From IMG/VR virus record IMGVR_UViG_3300036790_000261, positions 24,725-88,724 of that record: DNA of 64,000 nucleotides, one strand, 5' to 3'. Each line of letters starts with the position of its first letter. Position 1 is the stretch's first letter. Below are positions 8,186 through 53,629 of the stretch, in pieces. Source of the DNA: a virus. Its lineage: Duplodnaviria; Heunggongvirae; Uroviricota; Caudoviricetes. The translations under genes were made by a program, and so were the position numbers. The notes under the pieces were generated by a model, which did no database searches, had not been told where the DNA came from, and was given only the letters and a program-made list of their open reading frames with translations.

Positions 8186-8194
8186 GCTAGCCGC

Positions 8195-8653: not shown

Positions 8654-9825
8654 AAGGAAGTTACGGCCGGCCGAGAGCGCTTCGGTCAACTAGGAGGTGG
8701 TGCCGGGGTGGCTCGTATCTTGCTAGTTCACCCGGGTTTAGCCCGGACTTTTCGGTTGCTGACGTCTACCGGGGCTGGGAAAAAGCGCTTCGGAAGCTCG
8801 GCCACACGGTCATGGCCTTCAATACCAATGACCGCCTGACTTACTACGGGCACGCCCGGATGCCCGACCACGACAAGCCGGTGTGCGAGGTGTGTGACCA
8901 GGTCCCGACGCACCAGGCCCTTGACGGTGACGGCATCAAGCAGCTGGGCATGGACGGCCTGTACAAAGAGCTGTACCTGTTCTGGCCGGACGTGGTGTTC
9001 TTCGTCTCCGGGTTCTACATGACCCCGGCGATGCTGCAGGTGATCCGCACCCGGCGGCACAAGATCGTCATGCTGCACACCGAGAGCCCCTACCAAGATG
9101 AAGAGCAGATGCAGCGCGGTCAGTTTGCTGACCTGAACCTGCTGAACGACCCGGCGAACCTCGAAGCGTGGAAAGAACTCGACGTCCCCGTTGCCTACAT
9201 GCCGCACGCTTACGACCCGGACGTGCACTACCCCGACTGGCGCAGCGACCGCTACGAAGCTGACTTCGCCTTCATCGGCACCTTGTTCAAGAGCCGGGCT
9301 GAGTTCTTCAGCAAGATGGACTTCACGGGCCTGAACGTCGCGTTCGGCGGGGGTGGCTGGGACATCGCCCTGCACGACTACCCCGAGCTAGTGAACACCG
9401 TGGTTGACGTACAGCGGAACACCCGGCTAATCGACTACCTCGCCCACCCGCTAGACTCCTGCGTCGGAAACGACGAAACCGCGGACACCTACCGCAAGAC
9501 CAGGGTCGGCATTAACTTTTACCGGCGCGAAGGTGAAGACAGCCAGGCGCAAGGCTGGGCGATGGGACCGCGCGAGATCGAGATGGCCGCCTGCGGGCTG
9601 TTCTTCCTGCGCGACCCGCGGCCCGAGTCCGACGAGGTGCTCGGGCACATCCTGCCAGCGTTCGGCTCGCCGGAAGAGGCGTCAGAGCTGCTGCACAGCT
9701 GGATCGGCTACGGAAACCGCCGGGTGTACGCGGCTGAGCGCGCCTACAACGCGATCGCGGCCCGCACGTTCGGCAACAACGCTCGCGCGGCACTGAACCT
9801 GATGGAAGAGGCGGGCATCTTGTGA
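8596..9825 (+). CDS. glycosyltransferase-like protein (GT1/CgeB-like); start uncertain (ATG 8596 or ATG 8812)
   Basis: C-terminal region resembles CgeB/GT1-like glycosyltransferase fold; no GTG/TTG between 8596 and 8812 in frame. Confidence 0.4.
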   Translation: MERRALFRYPHSLQRVPPVEGSYGRPRALRSTRRWCRGGSYLASSPGFSPDFSVADVYRGWEKALRKLGHTVMAFNTNDRLTYYGHARMPDHDKPVCEVCDQVPTHQALDGDGIKQLGMDGLYKELYLFWPDVVFFVSGFYMTPAMLQVIRTRRHKIVMLHTESPYQDEEQMQRGQFADLNLLNDPANLEAWKELDVPVAYMPHAYDPDVHYPDWRSDRYEADFAFIGTLFKSRAEFFSKMDFTGLNVAFGGGGWDIALHDYPELVNTVVDVQRNTRLIDYLAHPLDSCVGNDETADTYRKTRVGINFYRREGEDSQAQGWAMGPREIEMAACGLFFLRDPRPESDEVLGHILPAFGSPEEASELLHSWIGYGNRRVYAAERAYNAIAARTFGNNARAALNLMEEAGIL

Positions 9826-13116: not shown

Positions 13117-16100
13117 TTGTCGGCTGCGTCAGAGGCAAAGGTCCAGGCTCAGCTGGACGCCTTGCACACGAACTTCACCCTCGGCACGAAGATTGACCCG
13201 GTAACGCTCGCCGCAGACAAGGCGAGCCTTCAGGCGTACCTCGACCGGAACATCGTTGCAGCCCCGATCAAGACAGCGCTTGACCCGGCATCGCTCGCGG
13301 CGTCGAAGGCAAGCATCGAAGCCTACATGTCCGGGATACCAGCCGGCCTGGACTTCAAGCTTGACCCGGTGAAGCTCCTCGGGGTCAAGGCGGGTATCGA
13401 CCGGTTCCTGTCTTCGAACACGGTGACCATTCCGGTTCAGGCCAATACCACCCAGGCAGTCAGCCGGCTAGAAGGCCTGGAAGCGGACACCTCCGTCCTG
13501 CAGACCCGGCTGATGAACCTGCGGGCAGAAGTGAACGACGTCGGCGCTGAGGCGAAGATCGCCGCGCTGCAGGTGCAGGCCGCCGCGTTCGCCAAGACCC
13601 TGGCCGGCGCCGGAAAGGGCGCGGACTTCGAGCCGCTGGAAGCCTCGCTGCTCGGCATGCAGTCTTCGTACGCGAAGCTGATCGCCGCCCAGGAGGCCGA
13701 GGACGAGGAGATCAAGCGGCAGACCGGTTTCTTCGGGGCGCTCGGGCTAGCCGGGCCCGGCTCGCTGATCCACATCACCGACATCCTGAACGCTTCCCTA
13801 CCCGCGGTGAAGCTGTTCGGCGGCGCGATCGGTGACATGTACGCGACGATCCGCGGCGGCGACGCCGAGCTGCCGACGGTCGCTAACCACCTGTTCAACC
13901 TTGCCAGCTCCGCGCACCTGACCGCTGAGGCGGCGATCGAGTTCACCGCGATCTGGGCTCCGGCAATTATCGCGGTGACCGCGTTCGGCCTGGCCGCTAC
14001 CCCGACGGTCATCACCATCGGCAAGCAGCTGCAGAACATGAACACCGCGGCCAAGGGCACCGGCCAGGCGTTCGCGTCCCTGGCGACCCAGGGGGAGCAC
14101 GTCACCGCGGCGGTTAAGCCAGCCGTGCTGGAACTGTTCGGTGAGGGGCTTGAGGCCCTGAAGAACGACTCGGGCACGCTAGGGCCGATCCTGGCTGCCC
14201 TGGGCAGCGGGTTCGACCGGCTGGGCGCGCAGGCAGTTGTCGCATTCGGCAGCGGCGGGTCCGGTGGCATCTTCAAGTCCGGCAGCGCCGACGCACTGGC
14301 CCTGGCTAACTCGTTTACCGCGCTCGGGTCAATCGCGGGGACGTTTTTCAAGCTGGTCCCCGGGTACGCCGAGATCCTGCTCGGCTTCGGCAATGACGTA
14401 TTGGGTGCTTCGGCAGACGTGCTCAAGTTCGTCGAGCCGGTACTGAAAATCGGCGTCGCCCTGCACGGCGCCATCTTCTACGGCGGCCTGTTCGGCACCG
14501 CTGTTGGCGCAGGACTTAACAAGCTTGTCCCGGTTGCCGCGAGCGTAGCCGGGGGCATCGCTAACCTAGCCGGGAAGTTCGAGCTTCTCGGCGGCGAGTC
14601 CGGCAAGCTGGCAACCGGCGCGGCTGATGCGGCAACCGCCCTTGACGGTATCGCCGGCGGCCCGGTCATCGTCGGCCTGGCGCTGCTAGCTGGCGCGGTC
14701 GCGGCTGTCGTGCTTTACATGAAGGCGGCTAGCGACTCGGCGGCGGCATTCAACAAGTCGATTCAGTCGACGGTGCAGTCAGCGAGCGTGCTGAACCTGC
14801 AGAAAGCGATTACGACCGGGCTGACTGAGACTACGGTCCAGTACACGGCTGCGCTGAAAAACGTCGCGCAGGCAAACAACACAGCAGCTGCCTCCGCCGG
14901 GAGCGTTCAGTTCCGGTACTCAGGCGTAACCACCGCGCAGCAGGCGGCTACCACGGCAGCCGGCGAGTACCAGGGCGCGCTGAGCCAGCTGACCACCCAG
15001 CAGACGAACGTTAACAGCAACCTCCAGGCGCTAGCCGACACTTTTCACACGACGCTCCCCGGCGCACTCGCCATCGCCAACGGCGCGCAGATTACCAGCA
15101 ACCAGCTCATGGGCTCCGGTGCGCAGAACATCGCCACCATCAAGGCGCAAGCGGTAGGTTACGCCGATCAGCTGGCCGTGATGACCGCAGGCACCGGCAC
15201 GCTGAACCAGGCGCTGAACGCGCTGAGCGTCACCCAGTCGGCACAGGTTACTGACGCGCAGAAGCTTGCCCAGGCGTACGCGTCGTGGATCGGGATCGTC
15301 ACCGGCGGGGACAGCGCGTTCACCTCGTTCGAGCAGTCGCAGCAGACCCTGGTAGACACGCTCGGCGGCAAGGTAACGCCCGCTGTCGTCACGGCGACGA
15401 CTGCCTCGACTAGGGCCGGGCAGTCCATCACCGCCCTGGGCGGGACCAGTTCGACGGCGAGCTCGTCGCTGACCAAGCTAGCCAAGGGCGGCAGCGACGT
15501 CACCACCTCGCTGTCGAACACGGCCAAGGGCGGCCAGGACGTCACTAATTCGCTGGACACCACGACGAGTGCGACGACGAAGGCCGCCAGCGCTGCGGAC
15601 ACCCTGTCGGTCAAGGTCGGGAACATCACCGAGAAGTTCGACCTGGCCGGCGCGGCGATGAACGGCACGTCGGTTGCGTCACTAGCCGCCCGGCAGGCGT
15701 TTGACCAGCAGATCGTGTCGGCAACCAGCCTGTACGGCGCCTTGCAGACCATGGCGGCGGCTAGCGGGAATAACGCGACCGCGCAAGTAGCGCTAGCTAA
15801 GTCTGGCAAGGACCTGGTCGCGCAGATGCTGCCGCTAGCTGCTGGCAGCAAGGAGGCGACGGCTGAGGTTTACGCCCTGGCGCAGATCGCCGGGTACGCC
15901 GGCCCGGACAGCTTCCAGAAGCTCGCCCAGTGGGTCGGCAATACTTCGAACGCCGAGTCTGACCTCAACACGCAGCAGACGATCCTTACGCTGAGCACGG
16001 CAAACCTGACCGCGGCGGCGAAGAACCTGGCAACGGCGGTCAGCCAGGAGATCACTCAGGCTGAAGCAGCGGCGATCGCCAAGACCGAGGACTTCAGCAA

Positions 16101-17997
16101 CACCACCCTGAAGCTAGCGCAGGCGTTCCAGGCTAGCGATGACTCGGCGAACTCCGCGGTGACCACTCTGTCCGGCACGTTTTACTCGTCGCTGATCAAG
16201 GCCGGAGATCAGACCAAGGACGCCACGCAGCAGGTAAACGCGTTCCTTAGCCAGCTCGGCGCGTCGCCTGAGGTGATCTCCCAGGTAGACGCCAGCCTGG
16301 CCAAGCTGCCGGACGGCACCCAGCAGGCTGTCAACGCGATGAAGAGCCTGAACGACGCGTCCCAGGCGAATCTAGCCACCCTGCGGTCGATCCCTGGGAC
16401 GCTCGCTACTAACACAGCTAGCTACAACGAGCTGTTCAACGCGATCGTCAAGGAAGACCAGGGGCTCGTCAACAACACCAGCCAGGCGGACACGACGAAG
16501 GCGGCGTTCATCGCATTCGCCGAGCAGGGCCTGAACCTGACCTCGTCGGCGGCGGCGAAACTGTGGGCGACGCAGAACGCGCAGAACCTGGTCGCGACCG
16601 CGTCCAAGGCGAGCACCACGGAGAACGCGTTCATCGCCATGGCCAAGAGCGGCCTGAACCTGTCGACGTCGTCGGCGCAGACCCTGTGGAACACGCTGCG
16701 GCTGCAGTACCTGGACACCCTGGTCACCAAGGGCAAGGGAGCGGAGAGCCAGTTCATCGCCCTCGCCAAGAGCGGCCTCGACCTGACCACGTCATCCGCC
16801 ACGCAGCTGTGGAACACCCTCAAGCAGCAGTACCTGGACACCCTGGCGTCCAAGTCGACTGAGACCGAGAAGTCGTTCGAGGCGACGGCTAAGCAACTCG
16901 GGCTAACGAAGACCGCTGCTGACCAGCTGTGGACTTCGATGCACACACTTGCCGCGGGCAGCCCGTACAGCGCGAACGTCAACGCGACGATCAGCGCGAC
17001 GGGTGAGGTCCAGGCCATCGAGTCGTCTGGCGCCGCGGCGAACATCGTCAACGCGGCACTCGGGGACCTGCACTTTTCCGCAGCGGGCGGTACGGTGCCC
17101 GGCGGAGTTCACGGGCAGGACTCGGTGCACGCCGTTCTCGCTCCCGGTGAGCTGGTCATCCCGAGCCAGCACGCGCCCAAGTTCGCCGACATGGCCCGTA
17201 AGGCGAGCATCCCCGGGTTCGCGGCCGGCGGTACCGTCGCGGCGGGTATTGACGCGATCGTGCCGACCTCGGTCAAGGACACCGGGCAGTTCGCGACGAG
17301 CACGATCGCGGCTTTCGTGAAGAACGTGCAGGGCGCGATGACTGCCCTGCTGGCCGCTCCGGGGAACACCCTCGCGTACGAGCCCGTCGTCCTGAACGTC
17401 ATGAAGATGCTGGACATCCCGCTGACCGACCTGTCCGCGATCATGCAGCAGATGGCGACAGAGTCCGGGGGTAACCCGCTGGCGGTCAACAACTCGGACA
17501 GCAACGCGGCGGCAGGCACCCCGTCCACCGGCCTTTTCCAGGTGATCGCCCCGACGTTCGACGCGTTTGCCGGGCCGTTCCGCAACACGGGGCCGTTCCT
17601 GAACGGCGTGTCAGTTAACCCGACCGCCAACACGTACGCAGGCTTGAACTACGCGATTCACCGCTATGGCATCGGCAACCTGACCAGCGTCCTCGGCCAG
17701 GGGCACGGCTACTCGTCGGGCGGGATGGTGAACGAGCCTGTCCTCGGGGTGGGCCTGAACTCGGGAACGCCCTACAGCTTTGCCGAGCGGGGCAGTGAGT
17801 ACGTCGGGCCGATCAGCGGCAACGGAACCTCGAACTCCGGGCTGCCCGGGATGTCGTCGTACCAGGCGAGCACGCTGATCAGCCTCATGCAGCAGCAGAA
17901 CAAGCTCCTCGCGCAGATGCCGTACAGCCAGGCGCAGGCAATCAACCAGGCGAACGCGACCGGGGTCAGAAGGGGGTATTTCGCGACAAGCGGCTGA
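13117..17997 (+). CDS. tape measure protein with C-terminal SLT lytic transglycosylase motif (5' end likely upstream, frame open back to 12940)
   Basis: 1626-aa repeat-rich alpha-helical protein; ESGGNPLAVNNSD...GLFQVI SLT motif; first canonical start is TTG 13117 but repeats continue upstream. Confidence 0.8.
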   Translation: MSAASEAKVQAQLDALHTNFTLGTKIDPVTLAADKASLQAYLDRNIVAAPIKTALDPASLAASKASIEAYMSGIPAGLDFKLDPVKLLGVKAGIDRFLSSNTVTIPVQANTTQAVSRLEGLEADTSVLQTRLMNLRAEVNDVGAEAKIAALQVQAAAFAKTLAGAGKGADFEPLEASLLGMQSSYAKLIAAQEAEDEEIKRQTGFFGALGLAGPGSLIHITDILNASLPAVKLFGGAIGDMYATIRGGDAELPTVANHLFNLASSAHLTAEAAIEFTAIWAPAIIAVTAFGLAATPTVITIGKQLQNMNTAAKGTGQAFASLATQGEHVTAAVKPAVLELFGEGLEALKNDSGTLGPILAALGSGFDRLGAQAVVAFGSGGSGGIFKSGSADALALANSFTALGSIAGTFFKLVPGYAEILLGFGNDVLGASADVLKFVEPVLKIGVALHGAIFYGGLFGTAVGAGLNKLVPVAASVAGGIANLAGKFELLGGESGKLATGAADAATALDGIAGGPVIVGLALLAGAVAAVVLYMKAASDSAAAFNKSIQSTVQSASVLNLQKAITTGLTETTVQYTAALKNVAQANNTAAASAGSVQFRYSGVTTAQQAATTAAGEYQGALSQLTTQQTNVNSNLQALADTFHTTLPGALAIANGAQITSNQLMGSGAQNIATIKAQAVGYADQLAVMTAGTGTLNQALNALSVTQSAQVTDAQKLAQAYASWIGIVTGGDSAFTSFEQSQQTLVDTLGGKVTPAVVTATTASTRAGQSITALGGTSSTASSSLTKLAKGGSDVTTSLSNTAKGGQDVTNSLDTTTSATTKAASAADTLSVKVGNITEKFDLAGAAMNGTSVASLAARQAFDQQIVSATSLYGALQTMAAASGNNATAQVALAKSGKDLVAQMLPLAAGSKEATAEVYALAQIAGYAGPDSFQKLAQWVGNTSNAESDLNTQQTILTLSTANLTAAAKNLATAVSQEITQAEAAAIAKTEDFSNTTLKLAQAFQASDDSANSAVTTLSGTFYSSLIKAGDQTKDATQQVNAFLSQLGASPEVISQVDASLAKLPDGTQQAVNAMKSLNDASQANLATLRSIPGTLATNTASYNELFNAIVKEDQGLVNNTSQADTTKAAFIAFAEQGLNLTSSAAAKLWATQNAQNLVATASKASTTENAFIAMAKSGLNLSTSSAQTLWNTLRLQYLDTLVTKGKGAESQFIALAKSGLDLTTSSATQLWNTLKQQYLDTLASKSTETEKSFEATAKQLGLTKTAADQLWTSMHTLAAGSPYSANVNATISATGEVQAIESSGAAANIVNAALGDLHFSAAGGTVPGGVHGQDSVHAVLAPGELVIPSQHAPKFADMARKASIPGFAAGGTVAAGIDAIVPTSVKDTGQFATSTIAAFVKNVQGAMTALLAAPGNTLAYEPVVLNVMKMLDIPLTDLSAIMQQMATESGGNPLAVNNSDSNAAAGTPSTGLFQVIAPTFDAFAGPFRNTGPFLNGVSVNPTANTYAGLNYAIHRYGIGNLTSVLGQGHGYSSGGMVNEPVLGVGLNSGTPYSFAERGSEYVGPISGNGTSNSGLPGMSSYQASTLISLMQQQNKLLAQMPYSQAQAINQANATGVRRGYFATSG

Positions 17998-18075: not shown

Positions 18076-18148
18076 GCGCGTGTAGCTCAGCGGATAGAGC
18101 ACCTGCCTACGGAGCAGGGTGCCGGGGGTTCGATCCCCTCCACGCGCA
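18076..18148 (+). tRNA. tRNA-Arg (anticodon ACG)
   Basis: Acceptor GCGCGTG/CACGCGC, D-loop TAGCTCAGCGGATAGAGC, anticodon loop CTACGGA, T-arm GGGGGTTCGATCCCC. Confidence 0.85.
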
Positions 18149-18151
18149 CTC

Positions 18152-18249: not shown

Positions 18250-21200
18250 GTGCCGGCCTACTCAGGCAGCTCCTTCCCGTACTGGATGACGATCCAGGAC
18301 AACGGCTCTACGGCTAACGCCGGCGCTGTGTCTGAGAACATCCCGGTCACGGTCGGCACCAGCTACACGTTCACCGTCTCTGCTGCCTACTCCGGGTTCT
18401 TCTCCGGCGGCGTCAAGCTCACCCTGGAGTGGTTCACCTCCGGCGGGACGCCGATCAGCACGGTGACCGCGACCAGCGGCGCGATGTCTCCCGACGAGAT
18501 CGTCACCTTTTCTACGGCCTCGACCGCAGCCCCGTCTAGCGCAGCGTTCGCGATCGCCACCGTTGCGCTGAACGGGCTGCCCGGCGAGGCGAACGTGCTG
18601 TCGGTCTTCGCGGCGGCCGTCACCCCGGCAGGCTCGGTGCCGGTCAACCTGAACTACGCGTTCACCTGGACGTTCTGGCCGTGGACGCCGTCTAACAGCG
18701 CAACCCTCGGCTGGCAGGCCGACCAGTTCCTGCTGAACAACTCCGACTCGCTCACTCTGGCGCACACGATCGAGCTGATGGGCGGCGCCGGCGGTGTCTC
18801 CTGCCAGGCGATCCCCGAGCTACTCGACTCTAACGGCGTCGGCCCCCGTTACCGCATTCTCGCGCCCCCGTCGCTGAACTCCGCGGCGTTCGGCTACGAG
18901 TCGTCTTACGACCTGAACGCCCCGCAGCCGACCCAGGACGTCGTCGCGTCCATGCTGCTCGACGGCGAGCGCCCCTTCGGTACAAGGGCATCCAACAGGA
19001 CCATCTCGCTGCCGGTGATCATCTTCGGCACGCTCGCCGGCGGCATGCGCCAGGTTCTGGCGGCCCGCGAGTACCTGATGTCGCTGATCGACCAGCAGAC
19101 CTGGGAGATCGCCTGGACCCCGGCCGACACCGGTAAGCCGCTGATTTACGACGCGTTCCGGGCGCTGCCGTCCGTCCCGGTCTACGGCATGAACCACTCG
19201 GCTGGCGGTGCCGCGAGCAACTCGACGGTCGGCCGGGCGAACTACCCGATCGCGCTGATCACGCTGACGGTCCAGGCGCTGCCCTACGGGCGCTCAGACA
19301 TCGACGGCGTGCAGACCCTGCCGGTCAGCAACAGCCTGATCAACGCGCCCGTGCCGCCCGGGGCGCAGCTTCTCGACAACTTCTCCGTGGTCACCCCCGG
19401 CATGGGCTGGGTGCAAGACGAGTCCAAGTTCGTTCAGGGCGGTACCGCAAGCATTCGCTACGACGCGCCCGTTCCCCTGTCCAGCCCGTACCCGGCGGCT
19501 GTCTACGCGGCTGCGCTCAGCTCGCCGGTCAGCATCATGGGGCTGCCTGCAGTATCGGTCTGGCTCGGCCAGGCGTATGACACCCAGTGGCCCGCGGCGC
19601 CGACGTTTGCCTCTAACGTCACCCTGGCCTGGACGCTGCTGGACGGCAGCGAGCGCGCCCTGTCATTCTCGACGACTCACAATGCCGCGGCCTGGGGCGC
19701 GTCCCCGTCCACTCCCAAATGGACCCTGGTGTCAGCGCCGGTTCCGCAGGGGAACCAGAACTTCTCCTACGGGAACGTCGTCGCCTACTCAGTGCGGCTT
19801 ACCAACTGGGCCGGCTCGGGCAACACCGGCTTCGTCCGGATGCACGCCTGGCTGAACGACCTGACCGCCAACCCGCAGACCGTCGCCAACCAGGCCAGCC
19901 CCCGCGGCATCTTGTACAACCTGTTCTCACTGCCGGGCAGCGCGCGGGCGCCGGTCAACGTGCAGTGCCAGCTGCCCGCTACCGCGCCCGTCGTGCAGGA
20001 GATCACCAGTCCCGCGTCAGGCACCTGGATCGTGCCGCCCGCGGTGTACGCGCTGCAGGCTGAGGCGTGGGGCGGCGGCGGCAGCGGCGCTACCGTCAAC
20101 CAGTCCCGCCCGACGGCAGGCGCAGGCGGCGGCGGCGGTGAGTACGCGGCTGAGTCGCTGCTGGCAGTTGTCCCCGGGACGGCGATCCCCTACAGCCTTG
20201 GCGCCGGCGGCACCCCGTCCCAGATTCAGCAGACGGTCATCGACCAGACGGTGCCCGGCCTGCACAACTGGGTCGCCCCGGCGAACGTTACCTCCCTGCT
20301 GGTGGAGTGCTTCGGCGGCGGCGCGGCAGGCGCGGCGGGAGCTGGTGGCGGTGGCGCGGGCGGGTACTCGTCCTCGACCCTCACCGTCGTCCCCGGCACC
20401 TCTTACCTGATCTCCGTCGGCGCCGGCGGCATGGCGAACACGGGCACCACCTCGGCGGACAACGCTGCCCGCAACGGCGGTGCCTCCTGGTTCGGCGCGT
20501 CGACGGCGACCGGCCCGTCTAACGCGCTAGTCGCTGCCTCCGGCGGTACCTCACCGCAAACCGGAACCGCAAGCGGAGGCTCAGGCGGTAACAACGCCGG
20601 GTGCCCTGGCACGACGCAGTTCCCCGGTGGCAACGGCGGTCATGCCCCCGGCGGCGGCGGAGGCGGCGGCGGCGGCTGCGGCGGGCACAGTGGTCACGGC
20701 GGGCACGGCCGGGCGCCTAACGCCAACGGCAACGGCGCCGCCTGGTGCGGCAACGGCCAGGGCGGTAACGGCAACGGGCAGGGCGGCGGCGGCGGCAACG
20801 GCTCGTCCGCGCCCGGTACCCCGTCGGGCGGCAGTTCTCCCGGCGGCGGCGGCGGCGGCGGCTTCTGCGGCTCGTTCTTCCAGTTCGCCGCGCAGGCCGC
20901 GCAGGCAACCCCCGGCCAGGCGCAGGTCAACTACATGGGGGCCAACGGCGCCAACGGCATGGTGCAGCTGACCTACGCGATCGGCAACGGAAACCCGGTT
21001 AACGGCGGGGCGACCACCTTCGGCTCCAGCGCCACGACGGGCGTCACCGTGACTGCTAACGGCGGCTCCAGCGCAGCGATCAACGCGGCGACGGGCGCGG
21101 CGGGCGGTTCCGGCTCGGCGAACACGGTTCACGCGTCCGGGGGTGCGGGCGGGCTGGACACCGGTACCTCGATGGGCAGCTGGATGCTCGGCCCGTCGGT

Positions 21201-23484
21201 GAGCTCCCTGTTCCAGACGCTGTCCTCGTTCAGCTACACCACGGCGACGCACACCTCGGGCACCGCGGGCAGTTCGTGCGCGCAGGGCGTCGGCATGGTC
21301 CTCGTCCAGTCGACTGCGCCGGTGCAGGACCTGACCGTGCAGGACTCGGCGGGCAACGTCTACCTGAACCAGGGGCAGCAGGGCGGCGGCACCGGCGGGG
21401 CAACGGGCTGCGTGTACCTGTTCACCGCGCCGCTGGTCTTCCCGATTACCACCGGCACCACCCTGGCCCTGGCCTCGGCGACCGCCCAGCAGTACGGGGC
21501 GATCTGGTACGCCTCACCGTGGGCGCTGGACGCCACCGGCTCCAACACCGGGCAGGCCAACGGCACCGGCACCGCGCTGAGCGGCCAGTTCGGCGTAGCC
21601 GACAACGTCTCCGCGCAGTACGAGCTCGTCGTCGCCTTCAACGCCACCAGCCAGAGCTTCGGCACCCCGACGTTCGGCGGTAAGCTCTGGTACGCCCCTG
21701 GCTCGACGAGCTCACTGACCTCGGGCAGCCTCTCGATGCAGGCGTACGTCGGGCTGAACGAGGGAGGCGGCACCGGAAGCGCTAACGGTGACGCCTTCGC
21801 CCTAACGCTGGGCGGCTCGTCGAGCTGGGCGGTGCTGTGCATCCCGATCCTGGCGGCGAGCCAGCAGGCGTACGTACCGCAGCTCGACTGGCGGGCCGGC
21901 ACCACCCCGGGCACCTCTACTACCTGGGGCACGGACTGCTCAATCTCCGCTGAGGGCATGATCGCGGTGGTCGGCATGGCCGGCTCCGGCAGCGGCATCA
22001 CCGCAGGCCCGTCGGCTGTCTCTGACCAGGGCGGGAACGCCTACACGATCCAGAGCACCACGCTGCTGCCCGCTAACGGCGGGGTAATGTTCCTGGCGAC
22101 CGCCCCGGTGACCGCAGCGATGGCGCAGGGCGCGTCCGGTACCGTCAGCTGGGGTCATGCGTCGGGCGCACCCAATTACTGGACGGCCGCGTACTGGATT
22201 CCCAACGCAACAGGCCTCGACGGGGTGTCTGCTGTCACCGGCAACAGCGGCACCCCGTCGGGGACGTACGCACCGAACAGCACGAGCCCGATGGCGCTGG
22301 CGTTCCTCGGCAACGCGGTCAGTGTTACCGCTGCCTCCGGCATGGCCGCGCCGTGGAACTACCTTGACCTCAACAACCAGAACTACCTGACCGGCCAGAC
22401 GTGGGCCAGCCAGGTTACCGACCGCACGGCCGTTACCGCCGCGACCACGATGACGTCGGACCCGTGGGGGCTGATGCTGATCGGCTTCGCGATGTCCGTG
22501 CGGGCAGCAGGCGGCGGCGCGGCGGGCGGGCCCGGTAACGCGGGGTACCCGTCTACCTTCTACGCGGGCGGCCCCGGGTACTCCGGCGGCGGCAAGGGCG
22601 GGCTCGGCGCGCAGTCCCTGAACACCCAGGGCGGCGGCGCCAGCCTGCCCGGAGGCGGCGGCGGCGGGTCGTTCGGCTCGACCACCACCTCGATCGAGGG
22701 CGGGCAGGGCGGGCAGGGCGCGGCCAGGCTTACCTATTCTCCGCCGCTCACCCCGTTCAACACGCTGCTCGTGCACCGGCCCGGCACTAACGCGAACCAG
22801 AACCTCAACCCGCTGGTGCCCATCCCGTTCTCCGACGTGCCGAATAACACCCAGTACGTCGTCGCCAACGCGGTGCAGCCGAACGTCAACGCGGTGTTCA
22901 ACTCGACCTACTCGGTGCTGCTAGTCAGCCACACCTGGAACTCCGCGACCCTCGGGGTAGCCCGCACGGTCACCGTGACCATCTCGCAGTTTGAGTACCA
23001 GGGCGGCCCGGCCAGCTCGGTGCAGGTCAGCCGGTCGATCGTGCCCGCTACCGACATCGTCAACGGCATCGTCAACATGGGCGACGTCACGTTGCCGATC
23101 AAGGACTACGCCAAGTTCAACGACCAGTCGTACTTCACGGTCTCGATCAACGACACCGACCAGTCGGACCGCTACATGGACGTGCTTTTCCTCGATACGA
23201 CCGGGCAGACTGTCCTGCTGAATATCGACCCGTCGCAGCCGGGCTACAACAGCTACGTCAACTACTACATCGACGAGCCCACCGCCGACCGGGACCTCGG
23301 GTTCATCGGCGGCACCACCCAGGACCGGCAGCACAACGTCTCGCTGATGGAGTACACGTTCATCTCCGGCGGCCCGCTGTACATCGGCGCGGGCGACAAC
23401 CTGCTGCTCACCTACAGTCCAAGTGGGGCGCCCAGTCTAGGGGTATCGTATTCTCCTCGCTGGTACCTAGATAGAATAGTGTGA
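18250..23484 (+). CDS. minor tail/fibre protein, glycine-rich (Gly_rich-type repeats)
   Basis: 1744 aa; repeated modules GGGGxGxxYAxE...VVPGTxYxIxVGAGG; poly-Gly/(GGC)n tracts. Confidence 0.6.
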   Translation: MPAYSGSSFPYWMTIQDNGSTANAGAVSENIPVTVGTSYTFTVSAAYSGFFSGGVKLTLEWFTSGGTPISTVTATSGAMSPDEIVTFSTASTAAPSSAAFAIATVALNGLPGEANVLSVFAAAVTPAGSVPVNLNYAFTWTFWPWTPSNSATLGWQADQFLLNNSDSLTLAHTIELMGGAGGVSCQAIPELLDSNGVGPRYRILAPPSLNSAAFGYESSYDLNAPQPTQDVVASMLLDGERPFGTRASNRTISLPVIIFGTLAGGMRQVLAAREYLMSLIDQQTWEIAWTPADTGKPLIYDAFRALPSVPVYGMNHSAGGAASNSTVGRANYPIALITLTVQALPYGRSDIDGVQTLPVSNSLINAPVPPGAQLLDNFSVVTPGMGWVQDESKFVQGGTASIRYDAPVPLSSPYPAAVYAAALSSPVSIMGLPAVSVWLGQAYDTQWPAAPTFASNVTLAWTLLDGSERALSFSTTHNAAAWGASPSTPKWTLVSAPVPQGNQNFSYGNVVAYSVRLTNWAGSGNTGFVRMHAWLNDLTANPQTVANQASPRGILYNLFSLPGSARAPVNVQCQLPATAPVVQEITSPASGTWIVPPAVYALQAEAWGGGGSGATVNQSRPTAGAGGGGGEYAAESLLAVVPGTAIPYSLGAGGTPSQIQQTVIDQTVPGLHNWVAPANVTSLLVECFGGGAAGAAGAGGGGAGGYSSSTLTVVPGTSYLISVGAGGMANTGTTSADNAARNGGASWFGASTATGPSNALVAASGGTSPQTGTASGGSGGNNAGCPGTTQFPGGNGGHAPGGGGGGGGGCGGHSGHGGHGRAPNANGNGAAWCGNGQGGNGNGQGGGGGNGSSAPGTPSGGSSPGGGGGGGFCGSFFQFAAQAAQATPGQAQVNYMGANGANGMVQLTYAIGNGNPVNGGATTFGSSATTGVTVTANGGSSAAINAATGAAGGSGSANTVHASGGAGGLDTGTSMGSWMLGPSVSSLFQTLSSFSYTTATHTSGTAGSSCAQGVGMVLVQSTAPVQDLTVQDSAGNVYLNQGQQGGGTGGATGCVYLFTAPLVFPITTGTTLALASATAQQYGAIWYASPWALDATGSNTGQANGTGTALSGQFGVADNVSAQYELVVAFNATSQSFGTPTFGGKLWYAPGSTSSLTSGSLSMQAYVGLNEGGGTGSANGDAFALTLGGSSSWAVLCIPILAASQQAYVPQLDWRAGTTPGTSTTWGTDCSISAEGMIAVVGMAGSGSGITAGPSAVSDQGGNAYTIQSTTLLPANGGVMFLATAPVTAAMAQGASGTVSWGHASGAPNYWTAAYWIPNATGLDGVSAVTGNSGTPSGTYAPNSTSPMALAFLGNAVSVTAASGMAAPWNYLDLNNQNYLTGQTWASQVTDRTAVTAATTMTSDPWGLMLIGFAMSVRAAGGGAAGGPGNAGYPSTFYAGGPGYSGGGKGGLGAQSLNTQGGGASLPGGGGGGSFGSTTTSIEGGQGGQGAARLTYSPPLTPFNTLLVHRPGTNANQNLNPLVPIPFSDVPNNTQYVVANAVQPNVNAVFNSTYSVLLVSHTWNSATLGVARTVTVTISQFEYQGGPASSVQVSRSIVPATDIVNGIVNMGDVTLPIKDYAKFNDQSYFTVSINDTDQSDRYMDVLFLDTTGQTVLLNIDPSQPGYNSYVNYYIDEPTADRDLGFIGGTTQDRQHNVSLMEYTFISGGPLYIGAGDNLLLTYSPSGAPSLGVSYSPRWYLDRIV

Positions 23485-31508: not shown

Positions 31509-32447
31509 CTACTTGCCCGCTGAGGCCGTCGGGATGACGATGCCCGACCCGCTGCCGGGCCAGCAGGAGCCGCCTGCCGGGACTGTGATCTGCCCGGCAG
31601 CCCAGGCGCTCATGCACTGCTGCACGAGGACCAGCGGGTTGTTGGCCAGGTTCTGCTCAAGCAGCTTGTTAGCTGCCGCCTGGGCAGATGCCGTCTTCTC
31701 TGCCTCGGTGGCAACGACTGTCTTGGCTGCCTGGTTGGTGGCCGCGTTGATCTGGTTCTGCACGGTGGTGTCGTAGGTCAGGGGCTTGAGGTTGAGGGTC
31801 GCGATGTTGATGTCACTGCCGACCCGTCCCTTCAGCGCTGTCTCGATCAGGCCACCTAGCTGGACTGTGCTCGGATTAGTCGGGCTGCCGGCCTTCGCGC
31901 CTGTGGCAAGCGGGGTGATCGGGTCGTACCCGTCGAGCACGGTGTTGGTGGCGGCGTTCAGCTCCGGGTCTAGCAACCCGCTCTGCAGGCCGGCTGTCGT
32001 CTTGTAGTTCGCGAAGATGTCGTCGGCCGCAGGGACGGCAGCGTTCCACCGAACCTGGACCGTTGCCTGCGCGGTCTGGCCGCCGGCAATGCGGACTGTG
32101 AACGTCTCGTCGGTCAGCTGGTAGCTGTCGTCGATGGTGGTGACGTTGTCCCAGGGCGCAGTCAGGTCGGGCCCTGGACCCTCGTGCCCGGCAAGCGCGC
32201 CGAACGACGTGACGATCCCGATGTCCCGGGTGCCGACGATGTTGAACGAGCTGACAAACACCAGCAGGCAGGTGAAGGCGGCGCAGGAGACAGCGAGGCC
32301 GAATGCCCAGGCATGCACGAGAGCGCCATCGGCCAGGCCACCGCGGGACGTCCTCTTGCCCTTCTCCGAGTGGCTGAGCCGCGCTAGAACAGCGAAGCCG
32401 ACTGTGAACGCCGCGACGATGATCGCGAAGGTGAAAATTCCTGACAC
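31509..32447 (-). CDS. SPFH/band-7 domain membrane protein
   Basis: N-terminal TM helices then SPFH-like core (TRDIGIVTSFGAL...PGPDLTAPWDNVTTIDDSYQ...ATVQVRWN). Confidence 0.5.
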   Translation of the reverse strand: MSGIFTFAIIVAAFTVGFAVLARLSHSEKGKRTSRGGLADGALVHAWAFGLAVSCAAFTCLLVFVSSFNIVGTRDIGIVTSFGALAGHEGPGPDLTAPWDNVTTIDDSYQLTDETFTVRIAGGQTAQATVQVRWNAAVPAADDIFANYKTTAGLQSGLLDPELNAATNTVLDGYDPITPLATGAKAGSPTNPSTVQLGGLIETALKGRVGSDINIATLNLKPLTYDTTVQNQINAATNQAAKTVVATEAEKTASAQAAANKLLEQNLANNPLVLVQQCMSAWAAGQITVPAGGSCWPGSGSGIVIPTASAGK

Positions 32448-51735: not shown

Positions 51736-51830
51736 CCTGGAACCCGGACCCCGGTTACGTGCTGATCTTGTCCGTTGTGTTCGCCGCGGCTGCCGCGACT
51801 GTCGCCCTGATGGTGCTGGGCGTTATCTGA
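51732..51830 (+). CDS. 32-aa single-TM peptide
   Basis: ATGA overlap with upstream gene; hydrophobic core. Confidence 0.3.
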   Translation: MTWNPDPGYVLILSVVFAAAAATVALMVLGVI

Positions 51831-51901
51831 GCCCCGTCCGCGAATTGAACGCGGGACCTCTTTCTTACCAAGAAAGCGCTCTTCCACTGAGCTAACGGGG
51901 C
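51830..51901 (-). tRNA. tRNA-Thr (anticodon GGT)
   Basis: GCCCCGT acceptor, TAGCTCAGTGG D-loop, anticodon loop TTGGTAA, T-arm CCGCGTTCAATTCGCGG. Confidence 0.8.
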
Positions 51902-52248: not shown

Positions 52249-52303
52249 GTTTTCCTCCTGAAAAGTTGGTGGGCCCCCGCCAATTCCCATGACGGGGGCC
52301 CGA

Positions 52304-52378
52304 TGTCACCGGGGGACTTGAACCCCCAACTTCAGTCTCCAGAGGACTGCGCGCTTCCGATTGCGCCAGGTGTCGGTT
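52304..52378 (-). tRNA. tRNA-like sequence (Gln, anticodon CTG) with imperfect acceptor stem
   Basis: T-arm GGGGGTTCAAGTCCCCC and anticodon arm CAGTC-CTCTGGA-GACTG present; 5' acceptor does not pair well. Confidence 0.3.
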
Positions 52379-52424
52379 GGTGCCCTCATGATCGTTGAGG
52401 GACAGCAGCTCTTGCGAGGGGTAA

Positions 52425-52486
52425 CGCTCTGCCGACTGAGCTAAGGGACCATGCTGGAGGTCCCTCGGGGGGTCGAACCCCGGACC
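52425..52486 (-). ncRNA. tRNA-like fragments in permuted order (3' half with CCA, then 5' half)
   Basis: ...GGTCCGGGGTTCGACCCCCCGAGGGACCTCCA then GCAT then GGTCCCTTAGCTCAGTCGGCAGAGCG; acceptor halves complementary to each other. Confidence 0.3.
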
Positions 52487-52638
52487 TTTACCTTGCACTG
52501 CTGACCTCGCGGGGAGGGCCTCACGGCTAACGGCTCGAAGGACAAGGAGCTTCCGGCTTATCAGCACGGCTCCCGGCTAACGGCATCTGCTAGGTCCTTA
52601 CACCAGTAACACTACCCGACACCGGGCGCAAAGGCAAA

Positions 52639-52698
52639 CCCGGCTCACGAGGCGCTCCGTCAGTGGGCGACGTCTTCACCATGGCCTCGTGAGCCGGG
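52639..52698. terminator. 15-bp-stem hairpin downstream of minus-strand gene
   Basis: CCCGGCTCACGAGGC...GCCTCGTGAGCCGGG. Confidence 0.4.
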
Positions 52699-52706
52699 CC
52701 TGGTTA

Positions 52707-52865
52707 GTCCTCGGTGTCGATGAACAGCGTGCCGGTCTCCTCGTCCCAGGACAGTCCCTGGATGTTCGTCCACCGCCCGGCCACGTTGACCATGACGTGG
52801 GAGAGGGGCCCTGAAGCGTGGCTAACCGCCTGGTCAATCTCCAGCAGCAGCTCGTCGGGACTCAC
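52707..52865 (-). CDS. small hypothetical protein (52 aa)
   Basis: GTGA overlap with upstream gene; good GC3. Confidence 0.3.
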
Positions 52866-53629
52866 GGCGCGGTCAGCCAGCCGAAGATGTCGGCGCCCTC
52901 GTTCAGCGGGGTGACCGTCGCCGAGTTCGCCTCCTCGCGGGCCATCTTCACCGCGGTGCGCAGCTTCGACAGCCGCTCCAGCAGCAGGGCCTTACGCTGG
53001 CGGGGCAGCGCGCCGGAGTAGTTCACCGTGCTGTTGTACTCGACGACCTGGTCGCGGGTCGTGACGTCTACCTGCTCCTGGAACTTGTCGGTACCGTTGC
53101 CGCGGTGCCAGTTGAACATGACCTTTTCCTTCTTGTCACCTTCCTGGGGCACCCTGGAGCGCCACTGTCCGGGCTCGGCGTTCTCGTCGGTCCAGTCCTG
53201 CACCGCGTCCAGCTCGGGGAGCGCGGTGACGAGGGTCTGCAGCTTGGTGAGCTCGCCCTCCAGGTACACCAGGTGCCGCACCGGGACGCCCGTCAGGACC
53301 GTGTCACCGTCGACCACCACGTCGGCCTTCGCGGCGCCCTGCGCGGTGTCCAGCGTCAGCGCGGTGTCCCACTTGCCGGTGAGCAGCTTCGCCGCGTCGT
53401 CCATCGCCTGCACCGCGGTGTAGCGAACCCGGGTGACCTGATCCGGCGTCACCTTACGGCGCGGTCCCTTGTTGTCCTTGTCGGGCTCGTCCGCCAGCCG
53501 GGACTTCTTCTCCATCCCGCTGAACAGTTCCTTGGTACCCAGGATGTGCGTCAGCCGGGCCAGGGACGTCTCCGCGTCGGTGCTCAGCCCGCCGATGATC
53601 GCGAGCAGCTGGTGAACCCTTACCGCCAT
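52862..53629 (-). CDS. hypothetical protein
   Basis: ATG (MAVRVHQLL) with GAGGAGAA SD; earlier in-frame start has no SD. Confidence 0.5.
   Translation of the reverse strand: MAVRVHQLLAIIGGLSTDAETSLARLTHILGTKELFSGMEKKSRLADEPDKDNKGPRRKVTPDQVTRVRYTAVQAMDDAAKLLTGKWDTALTLDTAQGAAKADVVVDGDTVLTGVPVRHLVYLEGELTKLQTLVTALPELDAVQDWTDENAEPGQWRSRVPQEGDKKEKVMFNWHRGNGTDKFQEQVDVTTRDQVVEYNSTVNYSGALPRQRKALLLERLSKLRTAVKMAREEANSATVTPLNEGADIFGWLTAP

What the first reader, a model, noticed from the sequence alone, without database searches (positions are those of the whole stretch)
52425..52486. Permuted or fragmented tRNA-like element: 3' half with encoded CCA placed immediately upstream of a matching 5' half
On the minus strand the sequence GGTCCGGGGTTCGACCCCCCGAGGGACC-T-CCA (T-arm plus 3' acceptor plus CCA) is followed after GCAT by GGTCCCT-TA-GCTCAGTCGGCAGAGCG (5' acceptor plus D-arm). 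The two acceptor halves are perfectly complementary (GGTCCCT / AGGGACC), but they are in the wrong linear order for a normal tRNA. Possible explanations are a circularly permuted tRNA gene, an attP-like remnant carrying the 3' end of a host tRNA next to a truncated tRNA, or a recombination scar inside a phage tRNA cluster. The neighbouring Gln-like tRNA (52304-52378) also has an imperfect acceptor stem.
Basis: seen in the sequence. Interest (0 to 1): 0.55.

Follow-up and report, generated by a model that had tools for sequence, protein, structure and literature searches.

The report
tRNA-mimic Y-like RNA beside DUF7873
The "scrambled tRNA" is an intact, conserved non-coding RNA that imitates the shape of a tRNA, of the bacterial Y RNA (YrlA) type, but here and in hundreds of bacteria and phages it sits next to an uncharacterised protein gene (DUF7873) instead of the usual Ro60 partner.

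Summary
On the minus strand, 52486-52425 reads T-arm, 3' acceptor strand, U-CCA, GCAU, 5' acceptor strand, D-arm, and the two acceptor strands pair 7/7.

It is not a broken tRNA, an attP remnant or a recombination scar. It is the tRNA-like head of a ~138-nt Y-RNA-like ncRNA (52382-52519, minus strand). Rfam matches it full-length to YrlA (36.3 bits, E 8e-6, below the gathering score of 69). In YrlA this "permuted" order is the normal one.

Covariation is very strong. In 84 distinct homologues, aligned with a model in which the acceptor arm was left unpaired, that arm pairs in 98.5% of cells and all 7 pairs show compensatory changes. The tRNA Levitt pair 15-48 is A-U in 71 sequences and G-C in 11, with no exceptions.

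Three defining YrlA features fail: no Ro60/TROVE gene, no GNCGAAN0-1G motif, and a sub-threshold score. Instead the RNA lies 150-450 nt downstream of a DUF7873 gene. By a strict parser this holds in 72 of 80 cellular and 47 of 79 viral loci, against 1 element in 1.63 Mb of flanking sequence. No paper found mentions this pairing.

Best reading: a Ro60-independent, YrlA-like tRNA-mimic RNA that works with DUF7873 and is probably cut by RNase P. It is a new variant of a known kind.

The parts
52382..52519 (-). Y-RNA-like ncRNA domain. The 5' and 3' ends pair into a long interrupted stem (GCCCTC 52519-52514 / GAGGGC 52387-52382; GAGG 52508-52505 / CCTC 52400-52397; CAGCAG 52503-52498 / CTGCTG 52408-52403; GGTAA 52492-52488 / TTACC 52424-52420). 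The tRNA-like four-way junction sits on top of this stem.
   Evidence: RNAalifold consensus of 5 relatives with compensatory changes; MFE fold with z = -3.05; Rfam YrlA full-length hit at 52399-52504, 36.3 bits, E 8e-6.
52417..52494 (-). tRNA-like core: closing stem, variable region AGGTC, T-arm, closed acceptor arm, D-arm.
   Evidence: Custom model R1 scores it 65.9 bits, E ~1e-14, the only strong hit in the 64-kb window. Pair counts: T-stem 99.5%, acceptor arm 98.5%, D-stem 99.4% paired in 84 distinct sequences. Levitt pair 15-48 covaries perfectly, and U8 and A14 are invariant.
52444..52465 (-). Closed 7-bp acceptor-like arm: AGGGACC (52465-52459), loop U-CCA-GCAU (52458-52451), GGTCCCT (52450-52444). 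The predicted RNase P site is between T52451 and G52450. The C at -3 (52453) is invariant in the family.
   Evidence: Sequence. All 7 pairs show double compensatory changes, although the model left these columns unpaired. C(-3) is invariant in 82/82 sequences and -1 is U in 49/82. The RNase P / CCA inference rests on analogy with M. smegmatis YrlA (PMC4201824).
52536..52602 (-). Conserved 5' RNA domain. The stem AAGGAC...GTCCTT encloses two hairpins and the GCCGTTAGCC repeats. It is probably part of the same primary transcript.
   Evidence: Near-invariant in 5 relatives. Its function is unknown.
52609..52614 (-). -10-like hexamer TAGTGT just upstream of where RNA conservation starts. This is a candidate promoter only.
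   Evidence: Conserved position in relatives (TAGTGT / TA-TGCT / TA-AGCT). The sigma-70 consensus scan found nothing, so this is inference.
52862..53629 (-). DUF7873 protein gene (255 aa; the ORF can extend to 53677). It is the conserved genomic partner of the RNA.
   Evidence: Pfam PF25283, E 7e-57. 100% identical to a protein on a 122-kb contig binned with a Trebonia sp. MAG. Linkage statistics. AF2 model with pLDDT 90.6 and no significant PDB or viral structural match.
52704..52865 (-). Small 53-aa ORF overlapping the DUF7873 stop codon. It is conserved in the closest relatives.
   Evidence: GC3 0.89. Called in L300-L303 at the same position. No family match.
52637..52700 (-). Strong hairpin (17-bp stem, 30-nt loop) between the small ORF and the RNA start. 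It may be a transcript boundary or a processing site.
   Evidence: Sequence. It caused spurious miRNA-model hits at 52616-52720. Present in window and L300 only.
52302..52375 (-). tRNA (anticodon CTG, Gln) lying 6 nt after the end of the outer stem of the Y-like RNA (52382). It is probably co-transcribed, in which case RNase P cleavage at its 5' end would set the 3' end of the Y-like RNA.
   Evidence: ARAGORN and Rfam, 49.4 bits. A tRNA is present at the same position in relatives.

Best explanation
The element is the tRNA-mimicking head of a stable non-coding RNA with Y-RNA (YrlA) architecture.

The RNA is transcribed on the minus strand downstream of the DUF7873 gene, probably together with the following tRNAs. 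Its two ends pair into a long interrupted stem. On top of that stem a four-way junction carries a T-arm, a closed 7-bp acceptor-like arm and a D-arm, which fold into a tRNA-like L shape (shown by covariation, including the Levitt pair).

Because the acceptor arm is exactly 7 bp and is followed by U-CCA, with U at -1, it is predicted to be cut by RNase P between T52451 and G52450. That would leave a nicked, two-piece tRNA-like RNA with a CCA 3' end. This step is inferred from M. smegmatis YrlA and is not shown here.

The RNA belongs to a previously unannotated subfamily that is genetically coupled to the DUF7873 protein rather than to Ro60. The inferred mechanism is an RNP in which DUF7873 binds the RNA, as Ro60 binds the stem of Y RNAs, and the tRNA-like head engages or decoys tRNA-recognising factors. 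In phages the module sits inside tRNA clusters, which suggests a role in tRNA/RNA surveillance, repair or conflict.
For: (a) Rfam matches YrlA full-length at 52399-52504, E 8e-6.

(b) The MFE and alifold structures give a terminal stem plus T, acceptor and D arms.

(c) Model R1 left the acceptor arm unpaired. The window scores 65.9 bits. On 84 distinct homologues the acceptor arm is 98.5% paired, with double changes at all 7 pairs. Slid-partner controls give about 43%, and 0 of 500 shuffles reach the observed covariation.

(d) Levitt pair 15-48 is A-U in 71 and G-C in 11, with no exceptions. U8 and A14 are invariant.

(e) Linkage: sub-threshold YrlA hits lie downstream of DUF7873 in IMG/VR loci, in cultured Gordonia, Arthrobacter and Rhizobium phages, and in Nocardia, Kutzneria and Actinoalloteichus chromosomes; in a Vibrio phage the same position matches the permuted part of the beta-tmRNA model and passes the structural parser. 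A strict parser finds 72/80 cellular and 47/79 viral loci with an element within 900 nt downstream (median 243 nt), against 1 in 1.63 Mb elsewhere. By the model, 55/60 cellular and at least 56/79 viral loci have one.

(f) Bacterial DUF7873 genes share no protein neighbours with each other, so the RNA is the only constant partner.

(g) No GC3-supported ORF covers 52291-52703.

(h) Published precedent: M. smegmatis YrlA has a 7-bp acceptor stem, is cleaved by RNase P and receives CCA (PMC4201824).
Against: No expression, processing or binding data exist for this RNA or for DUF7873.

DUF7873 is mildly acidic (pI 5.9) and has no recognisable RNA-binding or enzymatic fold, so physical binding is inferred from gene linkage only.

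CCA directly after the acceptor strand is encoded in only 45 of 119 family members, so a CCA end cannot be the universal point of the system.

Similar closed-acceptor modules also occur without DUF7873, inside a GOLLD RNA, next to a ROOL RNA and elsewhere, so the RNA does not always imply DUF7873.

Only 64 kb of a 122-kb contig was examined for Ro60, and the host genome is unknown.
Confidence: 0.7

Rival explanations
1. It is an ordinary Ro60-dependent YrlA. Its Ro60 partner would be encoded by the host or elsewhere on the 122-kb contig, and DUF7873 would be an accessory or unrelated neighbour.
For: The only Rfam family hit is YrlA. The family's conserved 5' block (TCGAC/TCGAA/TCGAG...) resembles the CGAA-containing Ro60 motif, and 11 of 91 members carry an exact GNCGAAN0-1G. 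Ro60 occurs in some actinomycetes (PMC4201824).
Against: No TROVE protein among 65 window ORFs scanned, and no PDB Ro60 similarity for the Ro60-sized ORFs. No TROVE within +/-6 kb in three bacterial loci. The window RNA lacks the motif. Scores are half the gathering threshold. DUF7873 is followed by the RNA far more consistently than a chance neighbour would be.
Confidence: 0.15
2. It is a cis-acting 3'-UTR element of the DUF7873 mRNA, like mascRNA at the MALAT1 3' end. It would recruit RNase P to define or stabilise the mRNA 3' end rather than act as an independent RNA.
For: It always lies on the same strand, 150-450 nt after the DUF7873 stop. There are weak mascRNA-model hits at 52459-52520 and in L137. 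The features of an RNase P substrate are present.
Against: In the window lineage a separate small ORF, a strong hairpin and a conserved -10-like box lie between the gene and the RNA. The long terminal stem formed by sequences on both sides of the tRNA-like head fits a discrete, stable RNA. Many loci carry two such RNAs in tandem.
Confidence: 0.1
3. It is a genuine circularly permuted tRNA gene that is processed, through circularisation or ligation, into a decoding tRNA, as in Cyanidioschyzon merolae or Thermofilum pendens.
For: The 3' half precedes the 5' half, the acceptor, T, D and 'anticodon' stems are perfect, CCA is encoded, and it sits in a tRNA cluster.
Against: There is no 7-nt anticodon loop and no bulge-helix-bulge junction. 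Beyond GGTAA/TTACC lies a conserved asymmetric internal loop (UGCAA / CCCUCGCAAGAG) and then further covarying stems. Those sequences are conserved among relatives instead of varying like anticodons. Bacteria have no known tRNA-splicing endonuclease (established knowledge; noted in 10.1101/312249).
Confidence: 0.03
4. It is a non-functional remnant: an attP core carrying a host tRNA 3' end next to a truncated tRNA, a tandem-tRNA junction, or a recombination scar.
For: Tandem tRNAs are a known false positive for YrlA models (PMC4201824). The region is a phage tRNA cluster. A transposase-like gene lies about 6 kb away.
Against: No 5' half lies upstream and no 3' half lies downstream. The arm shows compensatory evolution among close relatives and family-wide covariation. 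Real tandem-tRNA junctions picked up by the same model do not pair (L178 rows; out-of-zone hits). The 3' half is absent from the metagenome and viral collections.
Confidence: 0.02

Closest known systems
YrlA (Y RNA-like) tRNA-mimic ncRNAs of bacteria and phages (Rfam RF02553; Chen et al. 2014, PMC4201824; structure in 10.1101/312249)
   Same: The order is the same: T-arm, closed acceptor stem-loop, D-arm. The tRNA tertiary signature is the same, including G15:C48 / A15:U48 Levitt covariation. Both have a long stem formed by the 5' and 3' ends, both lie near tRNA genes, and both often come as two tandem RNAs. The M. smegmatis member has the same 7-bp acceptor arm and is cut by RNase P and CCA-tailed.
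   Different: No Ro60/TROVE gene lies nearby. The GNCGAAN0-1G motif is absent in the window RNA. Rfam scores are 25-38 bits against a gathering score of 69. The constant neighbour is DUF7873. There is a family-specific invariant C at -3 in the acceptor loop and a conserved 3' block CCTTAAACG / CCTCAAGCG (CCCTCAACGAT in the window).
Circularly permuted tRNA genes of Cyanidioschyzon merolae, some green algae and Thermofilum pendens
   Same: The gene order has the 3' half before the 5' half, and the acceptor stem is closed by a short linker that RNase P / RNase Z would open.
   Different: Those genes have a bulge-helix-bulge junction that is spliced to create a normal anticodon loop, and they yield decoding tRNAs. 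Here there is no anticodon loop, the terminal stem is long and conserved, and the hosts are bacteria and phages, which lack the splicing endonuclease.
Two-piece (permuted) tmRNA of alpha- and beta-proteobacteria and cyanobacteria
   Same: The tRNA-like domain is permuted, with T-arm, 3' acceptor strand and CCA encoded upstream of the 5' acceptor strand. The Rfam beta-tmRNA model weakly hits the same part in the Rhizobium and Vibrio phage homologues.
   Different: There is no tag reading frame, no pseudoknots and no G3:U70 alanine identity pair. ARAGORN finds no tmRNA. The RNA is about 140 nt rather than about 350 nt.
mascRNA / MALAT1 3'-end tRNA-like element
   Same: A tRNA-like structure downstream of another transcript that is recognised by RNase P.
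   Different: mascRNA has the normal 5'-to-3' tRNA order and is eukaryotic. Only weak chance-level model hits occur here (E 4.5).

Membership tests
YrlA / bacterial Y RNA (RF02553; PMC4201824) | tRNA-like module in the order T-arm, closed acceptor stem-loop, D-arm | tested here: met
   Covariation of all three arms.
YrlA / bacterial Y RNA (RF02553; PMC4201824) | tRNA tertiary-interaction nucleotides, including compensatory G15:C48 / A15:U48 | tested here: met
   71 A-U, 11 G-C, no exceptions. U8 and A14 are invariant. GG is present in the D-loop in 70/82. The window has G15-C48.
YrlA / bacterial Y RNA (RF02553; PMC4201824) | Long stem formed by pairing of the RNA's 5' and 3' ends (the Ro60-binding module) | tested here: met
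   stems 52519-52488 with 52424-52382, with compensatory changes in relatives.
YrlA / bacterial Y RNA (RF02553; PMC4201824) | GNCGAAN0-1G motif near the 5' end (putative Ro60 contact) | tested here: not met
   no exact match on the minus strand between 52300 and 52900. The nearest is GCCGGAAG, with one mismatch, in the 5' domain. In the family, 11 of 91 have it.
YrlA / bacterial Y RNA (RF02553; PMC4201824) | Encoded within 4 kb of a Ro60/TROVE gene | tested here: not met
   No TROVE among 65 window ORFs scanned. No PDB Ro60 similarity for the Ro60-sized ORFs. None within +/-6 kb in three bacterial loci.
YrlA / bacterial Y RNA (RF02553; PMC4201824) | Score at or above the Rfam gathering threshold (69 bits) | tested here: not met
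   36.3 bits in the window. 25-38 bits in DUF7873-linked homologues.
YrlA / bacterial Y RNA (RF02553; PMC4201824) | Physical binding by Ro60; tRNA-type modifications; RNase P / CCA processing in vivo | not testable with these tools
   Requires immunoprecipitation, primer extension or Northern analysis.
Canonical tRNA gene | Cloverleaf in the standard order, with an anticodon loop, detected by ARAGORN or the Rfam tRNA model | tested here: not met
   no tRNA is called at 52382-52519, while the neighbouring tRNAs are.
Circularly permuted tRNA gene (algal/archaeal type) | 3' half upstream of the 5' half, with the acceptor stem closed by a linker | tested here: met
Circularly permuted tRNA gene (algal/archaeal type) | A junction that can be spliced into a 7-nt anticodon loop (bulge-helix-bulge motif) | tested here: not met
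   beyond the 5-bp stem there is a conserved asymmetric internal loop and further stems. No anticodon-like variation among relatives.
Two-piece tmRNA | Tag reading frame, pseudoknots, G3:U70, detection by ARAGORN or the tmRNA models | tested here: not met
   Acceptor pair 3-70 is U-A.
attP site carrying a host tRNA 3' end | An identical 3' tRNA segment in a host tRNA gene (attB), and an adjacent integrase | tested here: inconclusive
No integrase is adjacent. Covariation argues against this reading.
DUF7873-linked tRNA-mimic RNA (proposed here) | Lies within 900 nt downstream of a DUF7873 gene on the same strand | tested here: met
   In the window the T-arm starts 380 nt after the DUF7873 stop. 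Family statistics.
DUF7873-linked tRNA-mimic RNA (proposed here) | 7-bp closed acceptor arm, invariant C at -3, U8/A14, closing stem 3-5 nt before the T-arm, 3' block CCTYAAVCG-like | tested here: met
   The window has C52453 and CCCTCAACGAT at 52401-52391.

The most novel reading that the evidence does not exclude
DUF7873 together with one or two permuted tRNA-like RNAs is a self-contained, Ro60-independent ribonucleoprotein system. It is widespread in Actinomycetota (Streptomyces, Nocardia and others) and in other phyla, and it has been captured repeatedly by phages that carry tRNA clusters. RNase P would open the acceptor loop to give a split tRNA-like molecule, often with a ready-made CCA end, which DUF7873 would use as a cofactor, substrate or decoy in a tRNA-centred process such as RNA quality control or repair, or attack on and defence of the tRNA pool.
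Probability: 0.45. Interest if true: 0.8.

Novelty: new variant of a known kind. Interest (0 to 1): 0.62.

Why it matters
Every bacterial or phage Y RNA described so far has been defined by its partnership with Ro60, and what the tRNA-like head of YrlA actually does is still unknown.

A large sister group of YrlA-like tRNA mimics is tied to a different, uncharacterised protein of about 245 aa. It is present in at least 593 species genomes and at least 192 viral contigs. This would mean the tRNA-mimic module is a reusable RNA part that serves more than one protein system.

It would also give DUF7873 its first functional lead. It offers tractable models, such as Streptomyces, Nocardia and cultured Gordonia and Arthrobacter phages, for asking what tRNA mimicry is for.

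For annotation, it explains a recurrent unannotated gap of several hundred nt (about 390-530 nt in the cultured actinobacteriophages examined) inside actinobacteriophage tRNA clusters. It also warns that these elements are neither broken tRNAs nor att sites.

Tried and rejected
(1) No megablast match for the region in GenBank phages, and no tblastn match there for the 501-aa ORF (3486-4991) that I guessed to be the terminase. The phage has no close cultured relative.

(2) The supplementary tables of Chen et al. 2014 are not held, so I could not compare directly with the listed phage YrlAs.

(3) The review PMC10870794 is not held.

(5) I looked for Ro60 next to closed-acceptor elements in loci without DUF7873, to obtain a TROVE query. 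The 505- and 518-aa ORFs there have no Pfam or PDB match. I therefore could not run a TROVE tblastn over all loci.

(6) The sigma-70 promoter and intrinsic-terminator scan found no promoter, and one terminator-like site, on the + strand at 51837-51855, no more than shuffles give.

(7) Searches for the exact 3' half, as an attB test, found nothing.

(8) My first alignment used window coordinates that were off by 8 nt. I redid it.

(10) The closing stem could not be scored in one register, because the variable region is 3, 4 or 5 nt long (51% paired in a fixed register). With a flexible register it is perfect in 62% of members, against 11% in a swapped-partner control.
Full report
**1. The observation.** It contains a T-arm (CGGGG-TTCGACC-CCCCG), then AGGGACC, a discriminator U, CCA and the linker GCAU. 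After that come GGTCCCU, UA and a D-arm (GCUC-AGUCGGCA-GAGC). The two 7-nt strands are perfectly complementary. ARAGORN calls four tRNAs in the window, at 18076-18149, 51829-51901, 52302-52375 and 56442-56517. It calls nothing at this element, and neither does the Rfam tRNA model. So the element is not a mis-parsed ordinary tRNA.

GGUAA (52492-52488) pairs with UUACC (52424-52420), which is the equivalent of an anticodon stem. CAGCAG (52503-52498) pairs with CUGCUG (52408-52403). The unconstrained minimum-free-energy fold of 52395-52510 is a four-way junction on a closing stem, with z = -3.05 against dinucleotide shuffles.

As a chance control, I scanned viral contigs with a pattern that needs only GGTTCGA...CCA...TAGCTCAG. 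It returned 131 matches, mostly tandem tRNAs. Their putative acceptor strands pair at 2-4 of 7 positions. Only this element and one relative pair 7/7.

**2. What it is.** An Rfam scan at permissive threshold gave one non-tRNA hit with a meaningful E-value. This was YrlA (RF02553, 'Y RNA-like') at 52399-52504, covering the full model 1-114, at 36.3 bits and E 8e-6. The family's gathering score is 69.

YrlA RNAs are bacterial and phage Y RNAs with two modules. A stem formed by the 5' and 3' ends is thought to bind Ro60. The other module mimics tRNA, and in it the T-arm comes first, then a closed 'acceptor' stem-loop, then the D-arm (PMC4201824; crystal structure in 10.1101/312249). The 'wrong' linear order is therefore the native order of a known RNA class. 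That paper also shows that the M. smegmatis YrlA has a 7-bp acceptor stem, is cut by RNase P at the tRNA-like 5' end, and then receives CCA. It warns that tandem tRNAs can mimic YrlA. It also required candidates to lie within 4 kb of a Ro60 gene.

**3. Context in the window.** The window is a siphovirus-type phage genome from a high-GC host. It has capsid, connector, tape measure, tail and HNH genes, and no close relative in GenBank phages. Genes called by GC3 bias show a minus-strand arm from about 64000 down to 51800 that holds three tRNAs and this element. No GC3-supported ORF covers 52291-52703.

None of the 65 ORFs scanned has a TROVE/Ro60 domain. The three Ro60-sized ORFs with no Pfam hit also show no similarity to any PDB chain, a set that includes the Ro60 structures. 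The gene immediately upstream on the same strand (52862-53629) is a DUF7873 protein (PF25283, E 7e-57). It is 100% identical to a protein on a 122-kb contig binned with a Trebonia sp. MAG.

**4. The element is conserved, and the acceptor arm covaries.** DUF7873 relatives in IMG/VR brought in loci where a sub-threshold YrlA hit lies downstream of the gene on the same strand. These are L001, L004, L005 and L006.

The same holds in cultured phages of three host genera. They are Gordonia phages Phendrix and Guey18, Arthrobacter phage Mimi and Rhizobium phage RHph_TM16. In each, the hit falls in an unannotated gap inside or beside a tRNA cluster. In Vibrio phage D517 the same position matches the permuted part of the beta-tmRNA model, and the structural parser finds a closed-acceptor element there.

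It also holds in cellular chromosomes. DUF7873 in Actinoalloteichus, Kutzneria and Nocardia has unrelated protein neighbours in each genome, with no TROVE within 6 kb. Each time it is followed by a gene-free gap that contains the YrlA-type hit.

Among the window's closest relatives the acceptor arm is different each time and always perfectly paired. The versions are AGGGACC/GGTCCCT, CGGCTCC/GGAGCCG, CGCCCCG/CGGGGCG and GGGGACC/GGTCCCC. The outer stems change in a compensatory way as well, for example CAGCAG/CTGCTG against CGGTAG/CTGCCG.

**5. Quantification.** Profile-based retrieval found DUF7873 in at least 192 viral contigs and at least 593 species genomes. The genomes are mostly Actinomycetota, plus Sorangium, Chloroflexota and Armatimonadota. 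I kept 79 viral and 80 genome loci.

I then applied a strict structural parser. It requires a perfect 5-bp T-stem, the GTTCRANNC loop, a 7/7 acceptor arm and a 4/4 D-stem. It finds exactly one element within 900 nt downstream of the gene in 72/80 cellular and 47/79 viral loci, at a median offset of 243 nt. In the remaining 1.63 Mb of those same loci, both strands included, it finds one element. The 119 elements carry 71 distinct acceptor strands.

To avoid circularity I built a covariance model in which only the T- and D-stems were paired. The window element scores 65.9 bits (E about 1e-14) and is the only strong hit in the 64 kb. On the resulting alignment of 93 strong hits (84 distinct), the acceptor columns are 98.5% paired. 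All seven pairs show changes on both sides, with 5-6 pair types each. The T-stem is 99.5% paired and the D-stem 99.4%. Sliding the partner by one to three columns gives 40-45%. None of 500 shuffles reaches the observed covariation. The only rows with an unpaired 'acceptor' are two true tandem-tRNA junctions in L178, which serve as a built-in negative control.

The tRNA Levitt pair (15-48) is A-U in 71 sequences and G-C in 11, with no exceptions. U8 and A14 are invariant, and so is a family-specific C three nucleotides before the 5' acceptor strand. The closing stem is perfect in 62% of members, against 11% in a swapped-partner control.

By the model, 55/60 cellular loci have a strong hit. Two of the five misses carry an element by eye. 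At least 56/79 viral loci have a closed-acceptor hit downstream, and 18 have two. Many loci carry two tandem elements. The upstream class has a GCCC...AGGC D-arm and the downstream class a GCTC...GAGC D-arm, which is the window's class.

**6. Full anatomy in the window.** The consensus fold of five relatives gives the following parts:
- A conserved 5' domain at 52602-52536.
- The Y-like domain at 52519-52382, made of these stems:
  - an outer stem GCCCUC/GAGGGC;
  - GAGG/CCUC;
  - CAGCAG/CUGCUG;
  - an asymmetric internal loop (UGCAA against CCCUCGCAAGAG);
  - GGUAA/UUACC.
- The T, acceptor and D arms on top of these stems.

RNA conservation starts just after a -10-like TAGTGT (52614-52609). 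The sigma-70 consensus scan found nothing, so that promoter is only inferred. A tRNA starts 6 nt after the outer stem, so RNase P cleavage at its 5' end would also set the 3' end of the Y-like RNA (inference).

**7. How it probably works.** Three things are shown: a structured RNA under purifying selection for a tRNA-like L shape mounted on a terminal stem; strict genomic coupling to DUF7873; and the absence of Ro60.

The processing step is inferred by analogy with M. smegmatis YrlA. The arm is exactly 7 bp, U is at -1 and UCCA lies 3' of the arm. These features make the loop a good RNase P substrate. Cleavage between T52451 and G52450 would give a nicked two-piece RNA with a CCA end.

It is inferred from linkage alone that DUF7873 binds the RNA, and that the tRNA-like head recruits or decoys tRNA-recognising factors.

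**8. Comparison with the known, and caveats.** The RNA works like YrlA and is probably homologous to it. It nevertheless fails three defining criteria of that family: no Ro60 within 4 kb, no GNCGAAN0-1G motif, and half the gathering score. Full-text searches found no paper mentioning DUF7873 or this pairing. All phage Y-like RNAs described so far, including the 2025 Thermus phage study (PMC12135203), are Ro60-linked.

Several caveats apply:
- CCA directly follows the acceptor strand in only 45/119 members.
- Eleven of 91 members do carry the Ro motif.
- Closed-acceptor modules also occur without DUF7873. One lies inside a GOLLD RNA and one abuts a ROOL RNA.
- Only 64 kb of the 122-kb contig was examined.
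- There are no expression data.

**9. Verdict.** The element is a new variant of a known kind, a YrlA-like tRNA-mimic RNA with a new, uncharacterised protein partner.

Noticed in passing
window 52302-52375 (-); L300 4255-4327; L303 4205-4278; L141 3530-3604; L142 3670-3743; L144 3479-3551: The tRNA just downstream of the Y-like RNA keeps the same acceptor, D and T arms in all relatives but carries a different anticodon arm in each: Gln CTG, Gln CTG, Leu CAG, Arg TCG, Leu TAG and His ATG. In the window and four close relatives it has a C1xA72 mismatch plus one further acceptor mismatch. This looks like anticodon-arm swapping on a fixed tRNA scaffold.
   Followed up: partly
L083 8222-8293 within 8146-8638; L037 9638-9741 after 8971-9618: Closed-acceptor permuted tRNA-like modules also occur inside a GOLLD RNA hit (134 bits, just under the gathering score of 150) and 20 nt after a ROOL RNA (298 bits), in viral contigs that lack DUF7873 in the stretch held.
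   Followed up: partly
L023 199-1716 (+) and 1755-1874 (+): A 505-aa ORF with no Pfam or PDB match ends about 40 nt before a sub-threshold YrlA-type element (39 bits) at the head of a tRNA cluster. It may be another uncharacterised protein partner, or a very divergent Ro60.
   Followed up: partly
L137 6832-6889 and 6956-7063; L128 3864-3919 and 4015-4069; L129 3910-3967 and 4061-4144; L130 3818-3875 and 3972-4050: Many DUF7873 loci carry two tandem tRNA-like RNAs. The upstream class has a GCCC...AGGC D-arm and usually A-CCA after the acceptor strand. The window lineage has only the downstream class, preceded by a different conserved 5' domain (52536-52602).
   Followed up: partly
window 52704-52865 (-) and 52637-52700 (-): A 53-aa ORF overlaps the DUF7873 stop codon and is conserved in the closest relatives (L300-L303). 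In the window and L300 it is followed by a 17-bp-stem hairpin with no U-tract.
   Followed up: no
window 18076-18149 (+): A tRNA-Arg (ACG) sits alone in the virion-structural module, between the 1626-aa ORF taken to be the tape measure (13117-17997) and a 1744-aa ORF (18250-23484). It is far from the minus-strand tRNA cluster.
   Followed up: no
window 31509-32447 (-); L129 4368-5240: A Band-7/SPFH protein is encoded in the window. In Rhodococcus phage NiceHouse a band-7-like membrane protein lies about 640 nt after the DUF7873 gene, with the tRNA-like RNAs and one tRNA in between. This may be coincidence.
   Followed up: no
L229, L230 (Nocardia), L242 (Ktedonobacterales): A few cellular DUF7873 genes have no tRNA-like RNA downstream; a gene follows on the opposite strand or directly after. 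These are natural 'protein-only' cases that could show whether the protein can act without the RNA.
   Followed up: no
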